DNA of 64,000 nucleotides from an uncultured Acidobacteriota bacterium. Its GTDB lineage: Bacteria > Acidobacteriota > Vicinamibacteria > Vicinamibacterales > SCN-69-37. Where the stretch lies: positions 2,036,614-2,100,613 of the forward strand of contig CAVXSP010000001.1 in assembly GCA_963764505.1 (NCBI GenBank). The letters run 5' to 3'. Both the position numbers and the translations under genes were made by a program. Positions 1-40,206 of the stretch are shown here, in pieces (position 1 is the stretch's first letter; each line of letters begins with the position of its first letter). Below the pieces are notes generated by a model, which worked only from the letters and a program-made list of their open reading frames with translations, was not told the DNA's origin and ran no database searches.

Positions 1-490
1 GGTCGGTCCACGGGCCGAGCTGCGTATATCGCTGCCGGAGATCGAGCCCCATCACGCGAGACCACAGCCGCGCCCCCGGCGCGGGGACGTAATGGCCCTG
101 GGCGGCGGCGACGGACGGGTCGCCAAGCGCGGCCGTGAGCCGCTCGATCCAGTCGTGCGCGATCACGACGTCCTGGTCGATCTGCGCGATGAGCGGGTAC
201 CGGGCGGCGCGGATGCCGGCGTTCAGCGCGGCCGCGGCGCCGCGGCGCGCGCCGTCGAGCAGCTTCAGATCGCCCGCCGCCGCATGTCGCGCGAGGATCT
301 CGCGGGACCCGTCCGTGCTGCCGTCGTCGATGGCGACGATCTCGAGCGGTCCGGGGCATCGTGCGGCGAGAACGGCGGCCAGGACGTCTTCCAGCCAGCG
401 CGCGCCGTTGTGGACGGGCAGGACGATGCTGACGCCCGGGTGGAGCGACCCGTCGTGGGAGCGCGCAGGGGCCGGCGCCGCAGCGTCCAT
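1..490 (-). CDS. Glycosyltransferase family 2 (GT-A fold), N-terminal part; gene continues past the left edge
   Basis: Own translation of the minus strand from ATG 490-488: MDAAAPAPARSHDGSLHPGVSIVLPVHNGARWLEDVLAAVLAARCPGPLEIVAIDDGSTDGSREILARHAAAGDLKLLDGARRGAAAALNAGIRAARYPLIAQIDQDVVIAHDW. This shows the typical GT2 blocks VLPVxN, DDGSTD and DxD. It is absent from the ORF track because no stop lies inside the window. Confidence 0.8.
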   Translation of the reverse strand, partial: MDAAAPAPARSHDGSLHPGVSIVLPVHNGARWLEDVLAAVLAARCPGPLEIVAIDDGSTDGSREILARHAAAGDLKLLDGARRGAAAALNAGIRAARYPLIAQIDQDVVIAHDWIERLTAALGDPSVAAAQGHYVPAPGARLWSRVMGLDLRQRYTQLGPWTD

Positions 491-505
491 GGCCGGTTCA
501 GCATC

Positions 506-37297: not shown

Positions 37298-38263
37298 TCA
37301 CGCGTTGTCGATCTGTGCGGCGTACCGCACGGCCGCGTGGTCGGATGCCTCGTCCTCGCCGCACAGGATCGACCGATTCGCCGATCAGGTCCGGCCACTC
37401 GGAGAAGGTGCGGCCGACGAGTCGGCTCAACACGTCGACGCGGCCGGCCAGCCGCTCGCGCAGGTATTCCCGCGCCGCGCCCATCCGTACCGACGTGCGG
37501 TCGATGGGACGATAGGCGGCGAGATCGACCGTGTTCAGGACGGATCCGGCAGACGGGATTTCACCTGCTGCCATCGCCAACCCTGTGTGAACCGGACGAG
37601 CGGACGGGCGAAGCGCCGCGCCTGGCGGAGCTGCGCGCCCCGCACGTTGTGCTTCTCGCTCGTGTCGATCGGCACGTCCGGGTCCACGCCGAGCCAGGTG
37701 AACAGCCGCCGGAACAGACCGGCCGGGTCTCGCTGAAGCTCGGCGAGGGTGAGCAGGAAGATCTGGTCGCGGTCGAACAGCTCGAGATACGGTTCAAGCT
37801 GGTACGCGTAGTCGCTGCGCGCGATGTAGTCGTCCCGCGTACGCACCGCCTCCTCGGGGCCGAGGGTCTCTCGGCCGTCGGCCACGAAATGCCAGTAGTG
37901 GCTGATCGCCCTCTCGACCGGATGCCGCAGCATGTAGACGATGCGCGCGGCCGGATTGAACGCCCAGATCCGCTGGGCGCAGCCGCCGACCCAGTGGCGG
38001 GCCGAGTAGCTCGTGCTCGACTCGCCTGCGTACATGACTGCGCCCGCCATCGCGAACAGCCGCAGGTACCAGCCGATCCCGGGCTCCGGGTAGGGCTGGC
38101 CCTGACCCCACATGCGGCCTCTCGCGAGATGGGGCGCGAAGTACTGCGGCTCCTTGAACGCCGACATGAAGATCTGGGGGTGCTGGTGCAGGTACGCGTG
38201 AAGCGACGAGGTCCCCGCCTTCATGGCTCCGATGATGAACAGATTCGGAAAGATCGGCATCAT
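37298..38263 (-). CDS. PAPS-dependent sulfotransferase, 2 frameshifts as assembled
   Basis: ATG 38263-38261 overlaps the asnB stop (ATGA). It starts MMPIFPNLFIIGAMKAGTSSLHAYL (5'-PSB loop) and carries YMLRHPVERAISHYWH (3'-PB motif) in ORF 37535-38356. It continues in ORF 37020-37580 (GEIPSAGSVLNTVDLAAYRPIDRTSVRMGAAREYLRERLAGRVDVLSRLVGRTFSEWPDLIGES). A third frame holds the end (ILCGEDEASDHAAVRYAAQIDNA, stop 37300-37298). Confidence 0.75.
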
Positions 38264-40206
38264 CGCGACACCTCCACCGATCCGGTGCCGCCGGCGGGCG
38301 CCGCCGTCGGGGCGCTCGAGCGTCGAGCCCCGGCCAGCCAGCGCTGGAGGACCCACACCGCCCAGAGCGGATAGCTGCCGTCCACGCGGCCGGCGACGTG
38401 GTCGTCGTACGTGCGGACGAGCGCCCGGCGATCCAGATGTCCGCCGACCATGGAGTCCGGGCCGAGCACTTCGTCACGGAACATCGGGGCGTGCGGCCCC
38501 GCGATCCACGCGCCGATCGGCACCGTGAAGCCGCGCTTCGGCAGGCGCCAGAGGGCGCCGGGCAGCCGCTGGCGCGCCAGCGCCCGCAGGAGCGTCTTGC
38601 CCTCTCGACCGACCTGCTTCAGGGGCGCCGGGATCCGGAACGCCAGCTCGACCATGCGCCGATCGAGCAGCGGCGATCGCACCTCCAGGCCGTGCGCCAT
38701 GCTCATGCGATCGACCTTCACGAGCGGGTCGTTCGGGAGGTACACCTTCAGGTCGGCGTACTCGGCCCGCTGGAGGAGGTCGACGGACGGACAGCGGCGG
38801 AACGGCGCGGTCACGGCGTCGTACACCGGACTGGACGCCGGGTCGGGATCGGGCGCGAGACCCATCAACGCACGCGAGGCGGCCGGCTTGAGGAACGACA
38901 GGTCGGCGTAATAGGCGGCTGCGGGATCGCGGCCCAGGTTCTCGAGCAGCGTGCCGGCGCGCAGCGCGCGCGGCACCCTGCGGCCGCGCGGCCATCGACG
39001 CCCCGCCCAGCCCAGCGCCGGGCCGAGGCTGGCGGGGAGCCACTGGCGCGCCGCCGCTTCGAGCGCGAGCGGCACGTATCGGAAGTCGTAGCCGGCGAAC
39101 GTCTCGTCGCCGCCGTCGCCGCTCAGCGCCACCGTGACGTGCCGCCGGGCGGCGCGCGAGACGTACCACGTGGGAATCGCCGACGAATCCGCCAGCGGTT
39201 CGCCGAGGCCGGTGGTGGCCGGACCAATCACGTCGCCCAGGCGCGGCTCGATCTCCTCGGCGTAATGGCGGCTGCGGACGTGCGCGGCGGTGAGCGCCGC
39301 CGCCGCGAGCTCGTTGTGCTCGCGCGCACCGAACCCGACCGTCGCGGTCACGAGCCGGTCACCGAGCACTTCGGCCATGTACGAGACGACGAGGCCGGAA
39401 TCGATGCCGCCGCTGAGGAACGCGCCGAGCGGCACTTCGCTCTCGAGCCGATCGTGCACCGCCGTGCGGAGGGTGCCGTCGATCTCCTGCAGGAGCGCCG
39501 CGCGCGGCCGGCGATCGCTGTCGAACTCGTGGATGTCCCAGGTACCTCGCGAGATTCGATCCGGCCGTCGGCCGCCCGCAGCCAGTGTCCCGGCTCGAGC
39601 TTGCGCACGTTCCGATAGATCGTGCCGGGCGCGAGGAAGTAGCCGAGGGACAGGTACCCCTCGAGCGCGGTGAGATCGATCTCGCCGCTGCCAGAGCGGC
39701 GCCTCGCGGAGCGCCGGCAGCTCGCTGGCGAAGTGGAGCACGCCGTCGCGCATGAAGTAGAAGAACGGCTTCTTGCCGAGGCGGTCGCGCGCGGCGAAGA
39801 GCGCCCGCTGCCGGCCGTCGTAGATCGCGAACGCGAACATGCCCTCGAGGTGCTCGACGCAGCCGGGCCCGAACTCCTCGTACGCATGGACGATCGTCTC
39901 GGTGTCGCTGTCGGTCCGGAAGCGATGGCCGCGGTCCTCGAGCCGCGGCCGGAGCGTGCGGTGGTTGTAGATCTCGCCGTTGAAGACGATCCAGCAGGAC
40001 CCGTCCTCGTTCGCGAGGGGCTGCTGCCCGCGCGCGACGTCGATGATCGCGAGGCGCCGATGGCCCAGCGCGGCGCGCTCGGCATCGAAGAAGCCGTCGC
40101 CGTCCGGTCCGCGGTGGGCGAGCGCCGCGGTCATCGCCCGGACGCCGGCGTAGGCGTCTGGCGGCAACGGCCCGTCGAGGGAGAACGCGCCTGCAATCCC
40201 GCACAT
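38260..40206 (-). CDS. asnB: Asparagine synthetase B-type glutamine amidotransferase (EPS-associated), compensated double frameshift as assembled
   Basis: 648-aa ORF with MCGIAG (Ntn Cys2), HRGPDG, the PP-loop FLSGGIDSG, SGDGGDETFAGY and DRMSMAHGLEVRSPLLD. Residues encoded at ~39690-39545 read as nonsense in this frame. The alternate frame (ORF 39348-40085) gives GEIDLTALEGYLSLGYFLAPGTIYRNVRKLEPGHWLRAADGRIESR. Confidence 0.85.
   Translation of the reverse strand: MCGIAGAFSLDGPLPPDAYAGVRAMTAALAHRGPDGDGFFDAERAALGHRRLAIIDVARGQQPLANEDGSCWIVFNGEIYNHRTLRPRLEDRGHRFRTDSDTETIVHAYEEFGPGCVEHLEGMFAFAIYDGRQRALFAARDRLGKKPFFYFMRDGVLHFASELPALREAPLWQRRDRSHRARGVPVPRLLPRARHDLSERAQARAGTLAAGGRRPDRISRGTWDIHEFDSDRRPRAALLQEIDGTLRTAVHDRLESEVPLGAFLSGGIDSGLVVSYMAEVLGDRLVTATVGFGAREHNELAAAALTAAHVRSRHYAEEIEPRLGDVIGPATTGLGEPLADSSAIPTWYVSRAARRHVTVALSGDGGDETFAGYDFRYVPLALEAAARQWLPASLGPALGWAGRRWPRGRRVPRALRAGTLLENLGRDPAAAYYADLSFLKPAASRALMGLAPDPDPASSPVYDAVTAPFRRCPSVDLLQRAEYADLKVYLPNDPLVKVDRMSMAHGLEVRSPLLDRRMVELAFRIPAPLKQVGREGKTLLRALARQRLPGALWRLPKRGFTVPIGAWIAGPHAPMFRDEVLGPDSMVGGHLDRRALVRTYDDHVAGRVDGSYPLWAVWVLQRWLAGARRSSAPTAAPAGGTGSVEVSR

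What the first reader, a model, noticed from the sequence alone, without database searches (positions are those of the whole stretch)
1..40206. Roughly 40 or more reading-frame breaks, confined almost entirely to glycan-biosynthesis genes
I stitched protein-like segments across frames and counted frame changes in each of these genes:
- GT4 506-1769: 1
- Wzm permease: at least 2
- Wzt ATPase: 1
- two methyltransferases: 1 each
- radical SAM: 1
- Ig-like ORF: 1
- WbsX-GT2 fusion: ~7
- GT1-GT2: 2
- the four-gene GT operon 21601-26241: ~4, 5, 2 and 5
- secreted protein 26336-28320: at least 6
- membrane protein 28525-30041: 1
- adenylase: 1-2
- sulfotransferase: 2
- asnB: 2, compensating
In contrast, every gene from 40275 to 64000 is a single clean ORF. 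That is about 24 kb, including ORFs of 765, 764, 683 and 628 codons with the same GC content. Uniform random indel error should not spare 24 kb. Two explanations remain open. One is locally poor consensus, for example strain heterogeneity or low coverage over a variable EPS locus in a metagenome assembly. The other is genuine decay of the surface-glycan locus.
Basis: seen in the sequence. Interest (0 to 1): 0.6.

Follow-up and report, generated by a model that had tools for sequence, protein, structure and literature searches.

The report
Assembly-error frameshifts in a polysaccharide locus
The many broken reading frames in this bacterial surface-sugar gene cluster are really in the deposited sequence, but they are almost certainly single-base consensus errors of a long-read metagenome assembly over a strain-variable region, not dying genes.

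Summary
A frameshift-aware protein-to-DNA alignment finds about 60 frame changes in ten genes between 2.4 and 40.2 kb. It finds none in 13 control genes, and none in 40.3-64 kb.

The frame changes look like errors, not decay:
- All are 1-base events (a few are 2-base).
- About 77-83% are extra bases in the window.
- They do not sit in homopolymers or at a sequence motif.
- The corrected reading paths carry at most two stop codons.
- The corrected translations keep full-length domains. WbsX rises from 140 to 426 bits and covers profile positions 1-350 of 350.

A second assembly of the same species (ENA ERZ25039539 contig_16490) is 99% identical over 30.1-64 kb. It has an intact adenylation enzyme and sulfotransferase exactly where the window is broken. 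It also carries eight private single-base insertions of its own, in genes that are intact in the window.

High identity between the two strains stops at 30,104, and the ENA contig ends at about 26.2 kb. The breaks therefore lie in and next to a strain-variable glycan island.

Verdict: an artefact of locally poor consensus (confidence about 0.85). Genuine pseudogenisation is unlikely. One asnB insertion is shared by both assemblies and remains unexplained.

The parts
506..1835 (-). GT4 glycosyltransferase with at least one frame change near 1455-1474.
   Evidence: Tracer switch at 1454/1455. GT4 homologs from the loci align 467-1474 in one frame, and the N-terminal part aligns in other frames in one homolog. 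Support is weak to moderate.
2394..3337 (+). Wzm-type ABC-2 permease with two +1 frame changes at about 2492 and about 2790-2794.
   Evidence: Pfam ABC2_membrane matches only positions 92-208 in ORF 2798-3337.
3328..4078 (+). Wzt-type ABC ATPase with one +1 frame change at about 3492.
   Evidence: Pfam ABC_tran matches only positions 17-136, starting at residue 1 of ORF 3512-4078.
4116..9564 (.). Four apparently intact glycan genes in a lower-GC (about 0.60) stretch: GT2, polysaccharide deacetylase, pyruvyl transferase, GT2.
   Evidence: Full-length Pfam matches in single ORFs. GC profile.
10990..12331 (+). Radical SAM/SPASM enzyme with one frame change at about 11.73-11.75 kb.
   Evidence: Radical_SAM profile 1-90 lies in ORF 10990-12129. 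Radical_SAM_2 and SPASM lie in the overlapping ORF 11546-12331.
13118..16951 (+). Three intact genes: GT4, a WbsX-family glycosyltransferase (14281-15417) and a PMT_2-like membrane protein.
   Evidence: Pfam, with WbsX 1-350/350 at 433 bits. The first two are found by exact look-up in the protein collection.
17168..19320 (-). WbsX-GT2 fusion gene with eight consecutive +1 insertions between 18711 and 19171. Two more switches at 17375-17482 are seen by the tracer only.
   Evidence: Alignment to the window's own intact WbsX paralog (59% identity, no stops). The stitched protein gives WbsX 1-350/350 at 426 bits, against 141-350 at 140 bits for the raw 959-aa ORF.
19542..21662 (+). GT1-like/GT2 bifunctional glycosyltransferase.
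   Evidence: A single 706-aa ORF carries both domains. GT2 homologs align without any frame change. Only the tracer suggests a switch, at 21286.
21610..26241 (-). GT4-GT2-GT4-GT2 block with about 22 frame changes, mostly +1. Examples: 24193, 23785, 23706, 23577, 23472, 23391-23427, 23297, 23131, 22056, 21982, 21876, 21812, and 4-7 more in 24993-25843.
   Evidence: Three independent 47-51%-identical homologs agree, and so does the tracer. The stitched translation shows canonical GT4 and GT2 motifs. No homolog above 51% identity exists in the protein database.
26363..28351 (-). Secreted Ig-domain (Big_7) protein with about 14-16 frame changes, 12 of them +1.
   Evidence: DNA is 83.6% identical to the ENA contig, with 16 single extra bases in the window. 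Protein-level alignment. Substitutions are enriched at the third codon position, 53/41/98. Pfam.
28525..30041 (+). Strain-specific polytopic membrane protein. The ENA strain carries a non-homologous membrane protein here. One tracer-only frame switch at 29715.
   Evidence: No DNA or protein match to ENA contig positions 2081-3916. Tracer. Only a weak DUF7942 hit.
30104..30104 (.). Identity cliff. The 98.8-99.5% identity to the ENA strain ends here, at the stop codon of the 358-aa gene. The ENA contig itself ends at about window 26.19 kb.
   Evidence: blastn alignments. Contig range.
31597..34722 (+). Cassette of a PigA/RedW-like acyl-carrier dehydrogenase (intact), a carrier protein (intact) and an adenylation enzyme. 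The adenylation enzyme has one +1 insertion at 33601/33602 and a 2-nt difference at 34688-90.
   Evidence: The ENA ortholog is an intact 529-aa ORF.
37121..38263 (-). Sulfotransferase. The window lacks one base at 37524 and one at 37541. A divergent patch with more indels lies at 37254-37298.
   Evidence: The ENA ortholog is an intact 382-aa ORF. This kilobase has 53 mismatches.
38260..40206 (-). AsnB-type amidotransferase, closest to the XrtA/PEP-CTERM amidotransferase family. Three +1 insertions at about 39689, 39545 and 39541 keep the ORF open but put 48 conserved residues out of frame.
   Evidence: Six orthologs agree. Residue-level view. The ENA contig lacks the first two insertions and shares the third. 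NCBIfam TIGR03108 scores 538.6 bits against a cut-off of 816.9.
40275..64000 (.). Clean block with no frame change in any gene. It includes a GT4 (40275-41459) and PrsT-like TPR proteins.
   Evidence: Tracer. Ten control genes in this block show 0 events. All eight clear indels against the ENA contig leave the window ORF intact. One small ORF at 50179 is ambiguous.

Best explanation
The window comes from a 3.9-Mb contig of a Vicinamibacterales-like (Acidobacteriota) genome. It is most likely a long-read metagenome-assembled genome.

Positions 0.5-40.2 kb hold a surface-polysaccharide biosynthesis island. The island uses the ABC-transporter (Wzm/Wzt) route and carries many glycosyltransferases. 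It differs between co-occurring strains.

The consensus sequence over this island is of much lower quality than over the neighbouring core genome. Either only one strain's reads cover it (low local depth), or reads of divergent alleles were mixed during consensus and polishing. Spurious single bases, mostly insertions, remained in the deposited sequence at 0.15-1% per base in patches. They break reading frames of genes that are intact in the organism.

What is shown: the breaks exist, they have an error-like spectrum, they are private to this assembly, and they coincide with a strain-variable region.

What is inferred: the sequencing technology, and the exact cause (low depth or mixed haplotypes).
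For: 1. Comparison with a second assembly. ENA ERZ25039539 contig_16490 is 98.8-99.5% identical over window 30104-64000.
- Its adenylation enzyme (529 aa) and sulfotransferase (382 aa) are intact where the window is broken.
- It lacks two of the window's three asnB insertions.
- It has eight private single-base insertions that break the PrsT-like TPR protein, an M11 peptidase, NtrX and FTCD. All of these are intact in the window. A JGI homolog supports the window's 457-aa NtrX.

2. Error-like spectrum.
- All events are 1 nt (rarely 2 nt).
- 47 of 61 are +1; among well-supported events, 39 of 47 are +1.
- WbsX is 8 of 8 +1, and asnB is 3 of 3 +1.
- There is no homopolymer or motif association.
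- At most 2 stop codons lie on the corrected paths.

3. Signs of function.
- Corrected translations recover full-length domains and catalytic motifs.
- Differences from the ENA strain are mainly synonymous or third-position. Synonymous:nonsynonymous counts are 12:3 for the A-domain, and 6:0 and 2:2 for the two parts of asnB. The 84%-identical secreted protein shows 53/41/98 differences by codon position.

4. Location.
- The identity cliff is at 30104 and the other contig ends at about 26.19 kb.
- No homolog above 51% identity exists for the GT operon among 5.8 billion proteins.
- The left part is therefore strain-specific, where assembly depth and purity are expected to drop.
- Indels in 30-40 kb cluster with mismatches: 10 of 15 have a mismatch within 10 nt.

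5. Link to technology.
- Among asnB orthologs, frame changes occur in 3 of 10 loci from long-read-style assemblies (3 of the 4 events are +1). They occur in 3 of 70 other loci.
- Several ENA homologs of the GT operon (P0016, P0021) contain out-of-frame junk segments themselves.

6. Literature. Nanopore-only consensus retains indels that cause frameshifts unless coverage is about 40x (PMC9262707). Large soil long-read MAG sets are assembled with Flye --meta and one Medaka round (PMC12313526).
Against: - No reads are available, so coverage and allele support were not seen.
- The source technology of the 3.9-Mb contig is inferred, not known.
- For 0.5-26 kb, which holds most breaks, there is no near-identical independent copy. 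The argument there rests on the error spectrum and on homologs.
- Published Nanopore consensus errors are mostly homopolymer deletions. The non-homopolymer insertion bias seen here is not the textbook signature.
- One asnB insertion (TAC[C]TGG, about 39541) is shared by both assemblies. It is either a systematic error or a real mutation.
- The two contigs might come from the same read set, which would weaken their independence. It would not change the fact that their breaks differ.
Confidence: 0.85

Rival explanations
1. Genuine, recent pseudogenisation. One strain has switched off its surface-glycan island by accumulating real frameshift mutations.
For: - The breaks are concentrated in one contiguous glycan island and absent from 24 kb of flanking genes.
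- Surface-glycan loci are known targets of inactivation (general knowledge).
- One asnB insertion is shared by two assemblies.
Against: - About 60 events are all 1-nt and about 80% are insertions. The deletion bias of bacterial mutation (general knowledge) predicts the opposite.
- There are almost no nonsense codons, no large deletions and no IS elements.
- Corrected proteins keep full domains.
- Substitutions are mostly synonymous.
- A 99%-identical strain lacks the breaks. It carries its own private insertions in NtrX, FTCD and other genes. That would require parallel decay of unrelated genes.
- The indel:substitution ratio of about 1:10 in coding DNA is implausible.
Confidence: 0.07
2. Population-level heterogeneity. 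The consensus merges several co-existing haplotypes of a hypervariable glycan locus. The sequence then represents no real molecule, but it marks a real hypervariable region.
For: - A second allele at 84% identity exists for 26.7-28.3 kb, where insertion density is highest.
- There is an identity cliff at 30104 and a non-homologous gene replacement at 28.4-30.1 kb.
- Indels co-occur with nearby mismatches in 30-40 kb.
- Including both alleles at a polymorphic site yields insertions (inference).
Against: - This is a sub-case of the artefact explanation, not a true alternative.
- It cannot be separated from simple low depth without reads.
- The GT operon and WbsX-GT2 have no known second allele in any database searched.
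Confidence: 0.4
3. Programmed or phase-variable frameshifting. The frames are switched by slipped-strand mispairing or ribosomal frameshifting as a regulatory device.
For: Glycan genes are classic contingency loci (general knowledge).
Against: - The sites are not in homopolymers or short repeats, and no motif is shared (contexts).
- Up to 8-16 shifts per gene is incompatible with any known programmed mechanism.
- Tandem repeats in the window are intergenic heptamers, not at the break sites.
Confidence: 0.01

Closest known systems
Residual consensus indels in long-read (Nanopore/Flye/Medaka) metagenome-assembled genomes, which fragment gene calls (PMC9262707; workflow in PMC12313526)
   Same: - Single-base indels break ORFs.
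- They depend on local coverage and microdiversity.
- They are private to an assembly.
- They also appear in other long-read-style MAG loci and in ENA homologs.
   Different: - Here the errors are mostly non-homopolymer insertions. The published pattern is homopolymer deletions.
- They are confined to a 40-kb strain-variable island, while the adjacent 24 kb is error-free.
Genuine pseudogene accumulation in surface-polysaccharide loci of host-restricted or niche-shifted bacteria (general knowledge, for example O-antigen cluster inactivation in Yersinia pestis)
   Same: Multiple disrupted glycan genes in one locus with intact flanks.
   Different: - Real cases show a few mutations of mixed types (nonsense, deletions, IS insertions). 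These are shared by close relatives and come with relaxed selection.
- Here there are about 60 single-base events, mostly insertions, not shared with a 99% relative, and with conserved protein sequence.
ABC-transporter-dependent (Wzm/Wzt) polysaccharide gene clusters next to XrtA/PEP-CTERM-type EPS genes
   Same: After frame correction the locus encodes:
- Wzm and Wzt
- many GT2 and GT4 enzymes, and two WbsX enzymes
- a pyruvyl transferase, a deacetylase, a methyltransferase and a sulfotransferase
- an AsnB-type amidotransferase closest to TIGR03108
- a GT4 closest to TIGR03088
- PrsT-like TPR proteins

   Different: - All XrtA-system matches are below the NCBIfam cut-offs.
- No exosortase gene lies in the window.
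- The locus also carries a PigA/RedW-like dehydrogenase, carrier protein and adenylation enzyme cassette.

Membership tests
Assembly/consensus indel artefact | The indels are private to one assembly and absent from a near-identical independent sequence. | tested here: met
   Compared with ENA contig_16490 (99% identity), all window breaks in 30.1-40.2 kb are absent except one shared asnB insertion. The ENA contig has eight private insertions of its own. This could not be tested for 0.5-26 kb, where no close relative exists.
Assembly/consensus indel artefact | Uniform error-type spectrum: single-base events with a directional bias and no other lesion types. | tested here: met
   61 events, all 1 nt in the protein-level alignment. 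47 are +1. At most 2 stops lie on the corrected paths. Controls give 0 events.
Assembly/consensus indel artefact | The affected genes otherwise look functional, with conserved domains and purifying selection. | tested here: met
   Stitched WbsX-GT2 gives a full-length profile match. The stitched GT operon shows GT motifs. Synonymous and third-position differences are in excess.
Assembly/consensus indel artefact | Reads do not support the indels, or local depth or purity is abnormal. | not testable with these tools
   No reads or coverage data are available. The source contig could not be retrieved.
Assembly/consensus indel artefact | Association with an error-prone sequencing or assembly type. 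| tested here: inconclusive
   asnB orthologs show frame changes in 3 of 10 long-read-style loci against 3 of 70 others. The ENA contig has a Flye-style name. The technology of the window's own contig is unknown.
Decaying (pseudogenised) gene cluster | Disabling mutations of mixed types (nonsense, deletions, IS elements) with a deletion bias. | tested here: not met
   Only 1-nt events, about 80% of them insertions, and at most 2 stops. No IS-like ORFs were noticed in the ORF list.
Decaying (pseudogenised) gene cluster | The lesions are shared with very close relatives, or are few if recent. | tested here: not met
   Not shared with a 99%-identical strain, apart from one site. About 60 lesions is not 'few'.
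Decaying (pseudogenised) gene cluster | Relaxed selection on the broken genes. | tested here: not met
   Synonymous:nonsynonymous counts are 12:3 for the A-domain and 8:2 for asnB. The secreted protein shows a third-position excess of 53/41/98. The sulfotransferase patch is an exception (13:30) in a badly aligned region.
Phase-variable contingency locus | The frameshift sites lie in homopolymer or short tandem repeat tracts. | tested here: not met
   The contexts of 24 exactly placed indels show no repeat or motif enrichment. Tandem repeats lie elsewhere.
ABC-transporter-dependent polysaccharide locus (biological identity of the region) | A Wzm (ABC-2 permease) and Wzt (ABC ATPase) pair together with glycosyltransferases. 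| tested here: met
   Pfam ABC2_membrane and ABC_tran on adjacent genes, plus homolog alignments after frame correction. Multiple GT2, GT4 and WbsX genes.
XrtA/PEP-CTERM exopolysaccharide system | Exosortase XrtA, with system-specific amidotransferase, GT and PrsT scoring above the family cut-offs. | tested here: not met
   TIGR03108 scores 538.6 against 816.9. TIGR03088 scores 226.6 against 409. TIGR02917 scores 282 against 312. No exosortase was seen in the window. This is a resemblance only.

The most novel reading that the evidence does not exclude
The insertions are real. One Vicinamibacterales strain would then have very recently inactivated a 40-kb strain-specific surface-glycan island through an unusual, insertion-biased, locally targeted mutational process. 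Alternatively, the shared asnB insertion alone is a true species-level frameshift that splits AsnB into separate glutaminase and synthetase polypeptides.
Probability: 0.06. Interest if true: 0.55.

Novelty: not a real feature. Interest (0 to 1): 0.12.

Why it matters
The main value is as a quality flag. Gene calls, pseudogene counts and pathway inference for this 40-kb island in the deposited genome are unreliable. The same probably holds for strain-variable islands in other long-read metagenome genomes.

High-GC genomes hide such errors, because wrong frames stay open. Examples here are a 959-aa chimeric ORF and an asnB that looks intact but has 48 residues out of frame.

The case shows that frameshift density can mark strain-variable regions in metagenome assemblies. 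It also shows that frame-corrected translation recovers a coherent polysaccharide pathway.

If the breaks were real, this would be an unusually abrupt loss of a surface glycan. The evidence is against that.

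Tried and rejected
- Exact protein look-ups of window ORFs to retrieve the source contig failed or were withheld. Ten guessed ORFs in 4-30 kb were not in the collection, so one look-up was wasted.
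- Cluster members P0012 and P0013 looked like independent fragments of the 14.3-15.4 kb gene. Their contigs (L084, L085) do not match the window at all, so this was a clustering artefact.
- Plain tblastn HSP chaining could not localise frameshifts, because off-frame ORFs stay open at 70% GC and the HSPs run through the shifts. I replaced it with my own frameshift-aware dynamic-programming aligner.
- Methylation or restriction-motif hypothesis (GATC, GTAC, CCGG and others near the indels): no significant enrichment at 24 exactly placed indels, so it was rejected.
- The codon-usage tracer was trained on high-GC genes. It calls the 4-13 kb lower-GC stretch 'non-coding', so it is uninformative there. 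Pfam was used instead.
- The search for a near-identical copy of the GT operon found nothing above 51% identity. The direct comparison is therefore limited to 26.7-64 kb.
- The genome-contig scan with asnB found only relatives at 68% identity or less, and no synteny for the island.
- Some frame changes called against P0015 at 23955-24060 may reflect out-of-frame junk in that homolog itself. I treated them as uncertain.

Full report
CONTEXT

The window is about 70% GC. It is part of a 3,901,148-bp contig held by NCBI and ENA. Its AsnB-type gene is most similar (65-68% amino-acid identity) to Vicinamibacterales/Acidobacteriota metagenome-assembled genomes. At this GC content wrong reading frames stay open for hundreds of codons. 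ORF length alone therefore says little, so I used three independent ways to follow the true frame.

CHECKING THE OBSERVATION

First method: a codon-usage Viterbi tracer with six frames plus a non-coding state and no in-frame stops allowed. It was trained on the window's own long high-GC3 ORFs.
- It shows dense same-strand frame switching in 0.5-4 kb and 17-40.2 kb.
- In 40.3-64 kb every switch coincides with a gene boundary. Those boundaries are confirmed by the gene calls of a related contig. This includes the two places I had marked for checking: 54582 (NrdR/DUF4390) and 62316 (PgpA/CinA).

Second method: Pfam profile continuity across frames.
- ABC2_membrane matches positions 92-208 only. 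ABC_tran matches 17-136 only.
- AMP-binding 2-108 and 181-384 lie in different ORFs.
- Radical_SAM 1-90 and SPASM lie in different ORFs.

Third method: a frameshift-aware protein-to-DNA aligner that I wrote (BLOSUM62, frameshift penalty 14). I ran it with homologs from three sources:
- 80 related loci
- one database search using the stitched GT operon as query
- a near-identical ENA contig

The tally is about 61 frame changes in ten genes:
- Wzm: 2
- Wzt: 1
- WbsX-GT2: 8
- GT operon genes 2-4: 17, of which up to two may be gene junctions and a few at 23955-24060 may reflect junk in the homolog
- GT operon gene 1: 6-7
- secreted Ig-domain protein: about 16
- adenylation enzyme: 2
- sulfotransferase: 5, in a poorly aligned 3' region; 2 are clear
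- asnB: 3

Thirteen control genes gave zero events. These were the intact genes at 30.1-37.3 kb and ten genes across 40.3-63.6 kb.

With at least 45 events, the chance that none falls in the right-hand 37% of the window is below 1e-8 (my arithmetic).

Not confirmed, or corrected:
- The two breaks in the GT1-GT2 gene were not confirmed.
- The breaks in the two methyltransferases, the Ig-like ORF and the membrane protein were not tested independently.
- asnB has three +1 insertions (net +3), not two compensating shifts.
- GC content is not equal on both sides.
- Seven glycan genes inside the block are intact, and glycan/EPS-type genes outside it are clean. The pattern is positional and patchy, not functional.

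THE DECISIVE COMPARISON

An exact-sequence look-up showed that several window proteins cluster with proteins from a 66,950-bp ENA contig, ERZ25039539 contig_16490. I retrieved it in three pieces, L081-L083.

How it aligns to the window:
- 50740-64000: 99.46% identity
- 30104-51454: 98.8-99.1% identity

Where the window is broken, this contig is not:
- Its adenylation enzyme is a single 529-aa ORF. The window has an extra base at 33602.
- Its sulfotransferase is a single 382-aa ORF. The window lacks bases at 37525 and 37548.
- It lacks two of the three asnB insertions.

Where the window is clean, the ENA contig is broken. It has eight private single-base insertions:
- Six lie at window positions 44053, 44098, 44379, 45138, 46943 and 48604. 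They split or alter the TPR proteins, the M11 peptidase and neighbouring genes.
- One at 58554 changes NtrX from 457 aa to 499 aa.
- One at 59394 splits FTCD into 146 + 153 aa.
- A JGI protein in the same 90% cluster supports the window's 457-aa NtrX.

Two 99%-identical strains each carrying a different set of single-base insertions, some in housekeeping-type genes, is what assembly error predicts. Gene decay does not predict it.

ERROR SPECTRUM

- All events are single bases at the resolution of the alignments.
- 47 of 61 are extra bases in the window. Among well-supported events, 39 of 47 are.
- The broken WbsX domain was aligned to the window's own intact WbsX paralog (59% identity). It shows eight consecutive +1 shifts and no stop codon.
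- The corrected reading paths contain at most two stop codons in about 4,900 aligned codons.
- The stitched WbsX-GT2 gives a full-length WbsX match: profile 1-350 of 350, 426 bits. The raw 959-aa ORF gives 141-350 and 140 bits.
- The stitched GT operon reads as GT4-GT2-GT4-GT2 with canonical motifs.
- Differences from the ENA strain are mostly synonymous. Synonymous:nonsynonymous counts are 12:3 for the A-domain, and 6:0 and 2:2 for the two parts of asnB.
- In the 84%-identical secreted protein, differences by codon position are 53/41/98.

Real decay would be expected to add nonsense mutations and larger deletions. It would also show the deletion bias of bacterial mutation (general knowledge) and relaxed selection. 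None of these is seen.

WHY THIS LOCATION

- High identity to the ENA strain stops exactly at 30,104, the stop codon of a 358-aa gene.
- To the left, only 26709-28257 aligns, at 83.6% identity. It has 21 indels, 16 of them single extra bases in the window.
- 28.4-30.1 kb is replaced by a non-homologous membrane-protein gene.
- The ENA contig ends at about window 26.19 kb.
- The GT operon has no homolog above 51% identity among 5.8 billion proteins.
- The intact genes at 13-15.4 kb have no cluster mates at 90% identity or above.

The block is thus a strain-variable glycan island plus its edge. In a metagenome, such a region is covered by only one strain's reads, or by a mixture of diverged alleles. 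The flanking core is covered by all strains.

Consistent with a low-quality patch, mismatch density against the ENA strain also differs by region:
- 30.1-40.2 kb: 11 per kb (7 per kb without one hot patch)
- further right: 3.7-4.7 per kb
- 10 of the 15 indels in 30.1-40.2 kb have a mismatch within 10 nt
- none of the nine ENA-private indels in 40.2-64 kb do

Whether the cause is low depth or mixed haplotypes cannot be decided without reads.

LINK TO TECHNOLOGY (SUGGESTIVE ONLY)

- The ENA contig has a Flye-style name.
- Several ENA homologs of the GT operon contain obvious out-of-frame junk.
- Among 80 asnB ortholog loci, supported frame changes occur in 3 of 10 loci from long-read-style assemblies, and 3 of those 4 events are +1. 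They occur in 3 of 70 others. Two of those three are -1/+1 pairs that look like alignment noise.
- Nanopore-only consensus is known to retain frameshifting indels below about 40x coverage (PMC9262707).
- Large soil long-read MAG collections are built with Flye --meta and one Medaka round (PMC12313526).
- The non-homopolymer insertion bias seen here is not the classical Nanopore signature. I tested for a methylation or restriction motif at 24 exactly placed indels and found none.

UNEXPLAINED RESIDUE

Both assemblies share one inserted C in asnB (TAC[C]TGG, about 39541). In the ENA contig it is the only lesion, and it splits asnB into 281 + 372 aa. It may be a systematic error or a real frameshift.

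WHAT THE LOCUS IS BIOLOGICALLY

After frame correction the island encodes:
- a Wzm/Wzt ABC transporter
- at least ten glycosyltransferase domains (GT2, GT4 and two WbsX)
- a pyruvyl transferase, a deacetylase, a methyltransferase, a radical-SAM/SPASM enzyme and a PMT_2-like membrane protein
- a secreted Ig-domain protein
- a cassette of a PigA/RedW-like dehydrogenase, a carrier protein and an adenylation enzyme, followed by a large GDSL-type protein
- a sulfotransferase
- an AsnB-type amidotransferase closest to the XrtA/PEP-CTERM amidotransferase family

It is followed by a GT4 and PrsT-like TPR proteins. All XrtA-system matches are below the family cut-offs, and no exosortase is in the window.

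VERDICT

The frame breaks are real in the deposited sequence. They are best explained as consensus errors over a strain-variable island (confidence about 0.85). Genuine pseudogenisation is unlikely (about 0.06-0.07). Interest is low, except as a data-quality warning.

Noticed in passing
window 32814-32845, 40223-40260, 41465-41532, 50697-50716, 53909-53940, 53984-54119, 58820-58854, 59803-59856, 59868-59931: There are at least nine arrays of 7-bp tandem repeats with different units, from 3 to 19 copies. Examples are GCCTCTG x19, TACCGAT x9 and GCTTCTG x10. Most lie between genes. The array at 59868-59931 has three more units than in the 99.5%-identical ENA strain, so copy number varies between strains.
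   Followed up: partly
window 31597-37281: A three-gene cassette sits inside the polysaccharide locus. It has a dehydrogenase closest to PigA/RedW prolyl-carrier-protein dehydrogenases (440 and 417 bits, below cut-offs), an 85-aa carrier protein and an amino-acid adenylation enzyme. A GDSL-type protein of 854-1005 aa follows. The arrangement resembles pyrrole-2-carboxyl starter-unit modules and may decorate the glycan or a lipid.
   Followed up: partly
window 28351-30104 versus L083 2081-3916: There is a non-homologous gene replacement between two strains that are 99% identical to the right of 30,104. The window has a plus-strand polytopic membrane protein. The ENA strain has a minus-strand 611-aa membrane protein. 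The boundary falls exactly at a stop codon.
   Followed up: partly
window 39541 (asnB) and L083 about 13354: A single inserted C (TAC[C]TGG) is shared by both assemblies. In the ENA contig it is the only lesion, and it splits asnB into 281 + 372 aa. It is either a systematic error or a real frameshift.
   Followed up: partly
L011 10327 and 11774; L018 11362; proteins P0016, P0021 and ENA 611-aa (L083 2081-3916): Other long-read-style metagenome genomes and ENA proteins show the same kind of +1 frameshift or out-of-frame arginine/alanine-rich junk segments in EPS-locus genes. The problem therefore looks widespread in such assemblies of high-GC soil bacteria.
   Followed up: partly
window 14281-15417 and 18302-19320: There are two WbsX-family paralogs (59% identical) in one locus. 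One is a stand-alone intact gene. The other is fused in frame to a GT2 domain.
   Followed up: yes
window 50179 (small ORF 49888-50286, minus strand): This is the only window-versus-ENA indel in the 'clean' region where the window has the extra base. It lies in the N-terminal 30 codons of a small hypothetical gene (126-132 aa). I could not decide which version is right.
   Followed up: no
window 4000-22000: GC content drops to 0.59-0.65, against about 0.70 elsewhere. GC3 is only about 0.65 in the genes at 4-12 kb. This is consistent with a horizontally acquired part of the glycan island. This low-GC stretch has few frame breaks.
   Followed up: partly
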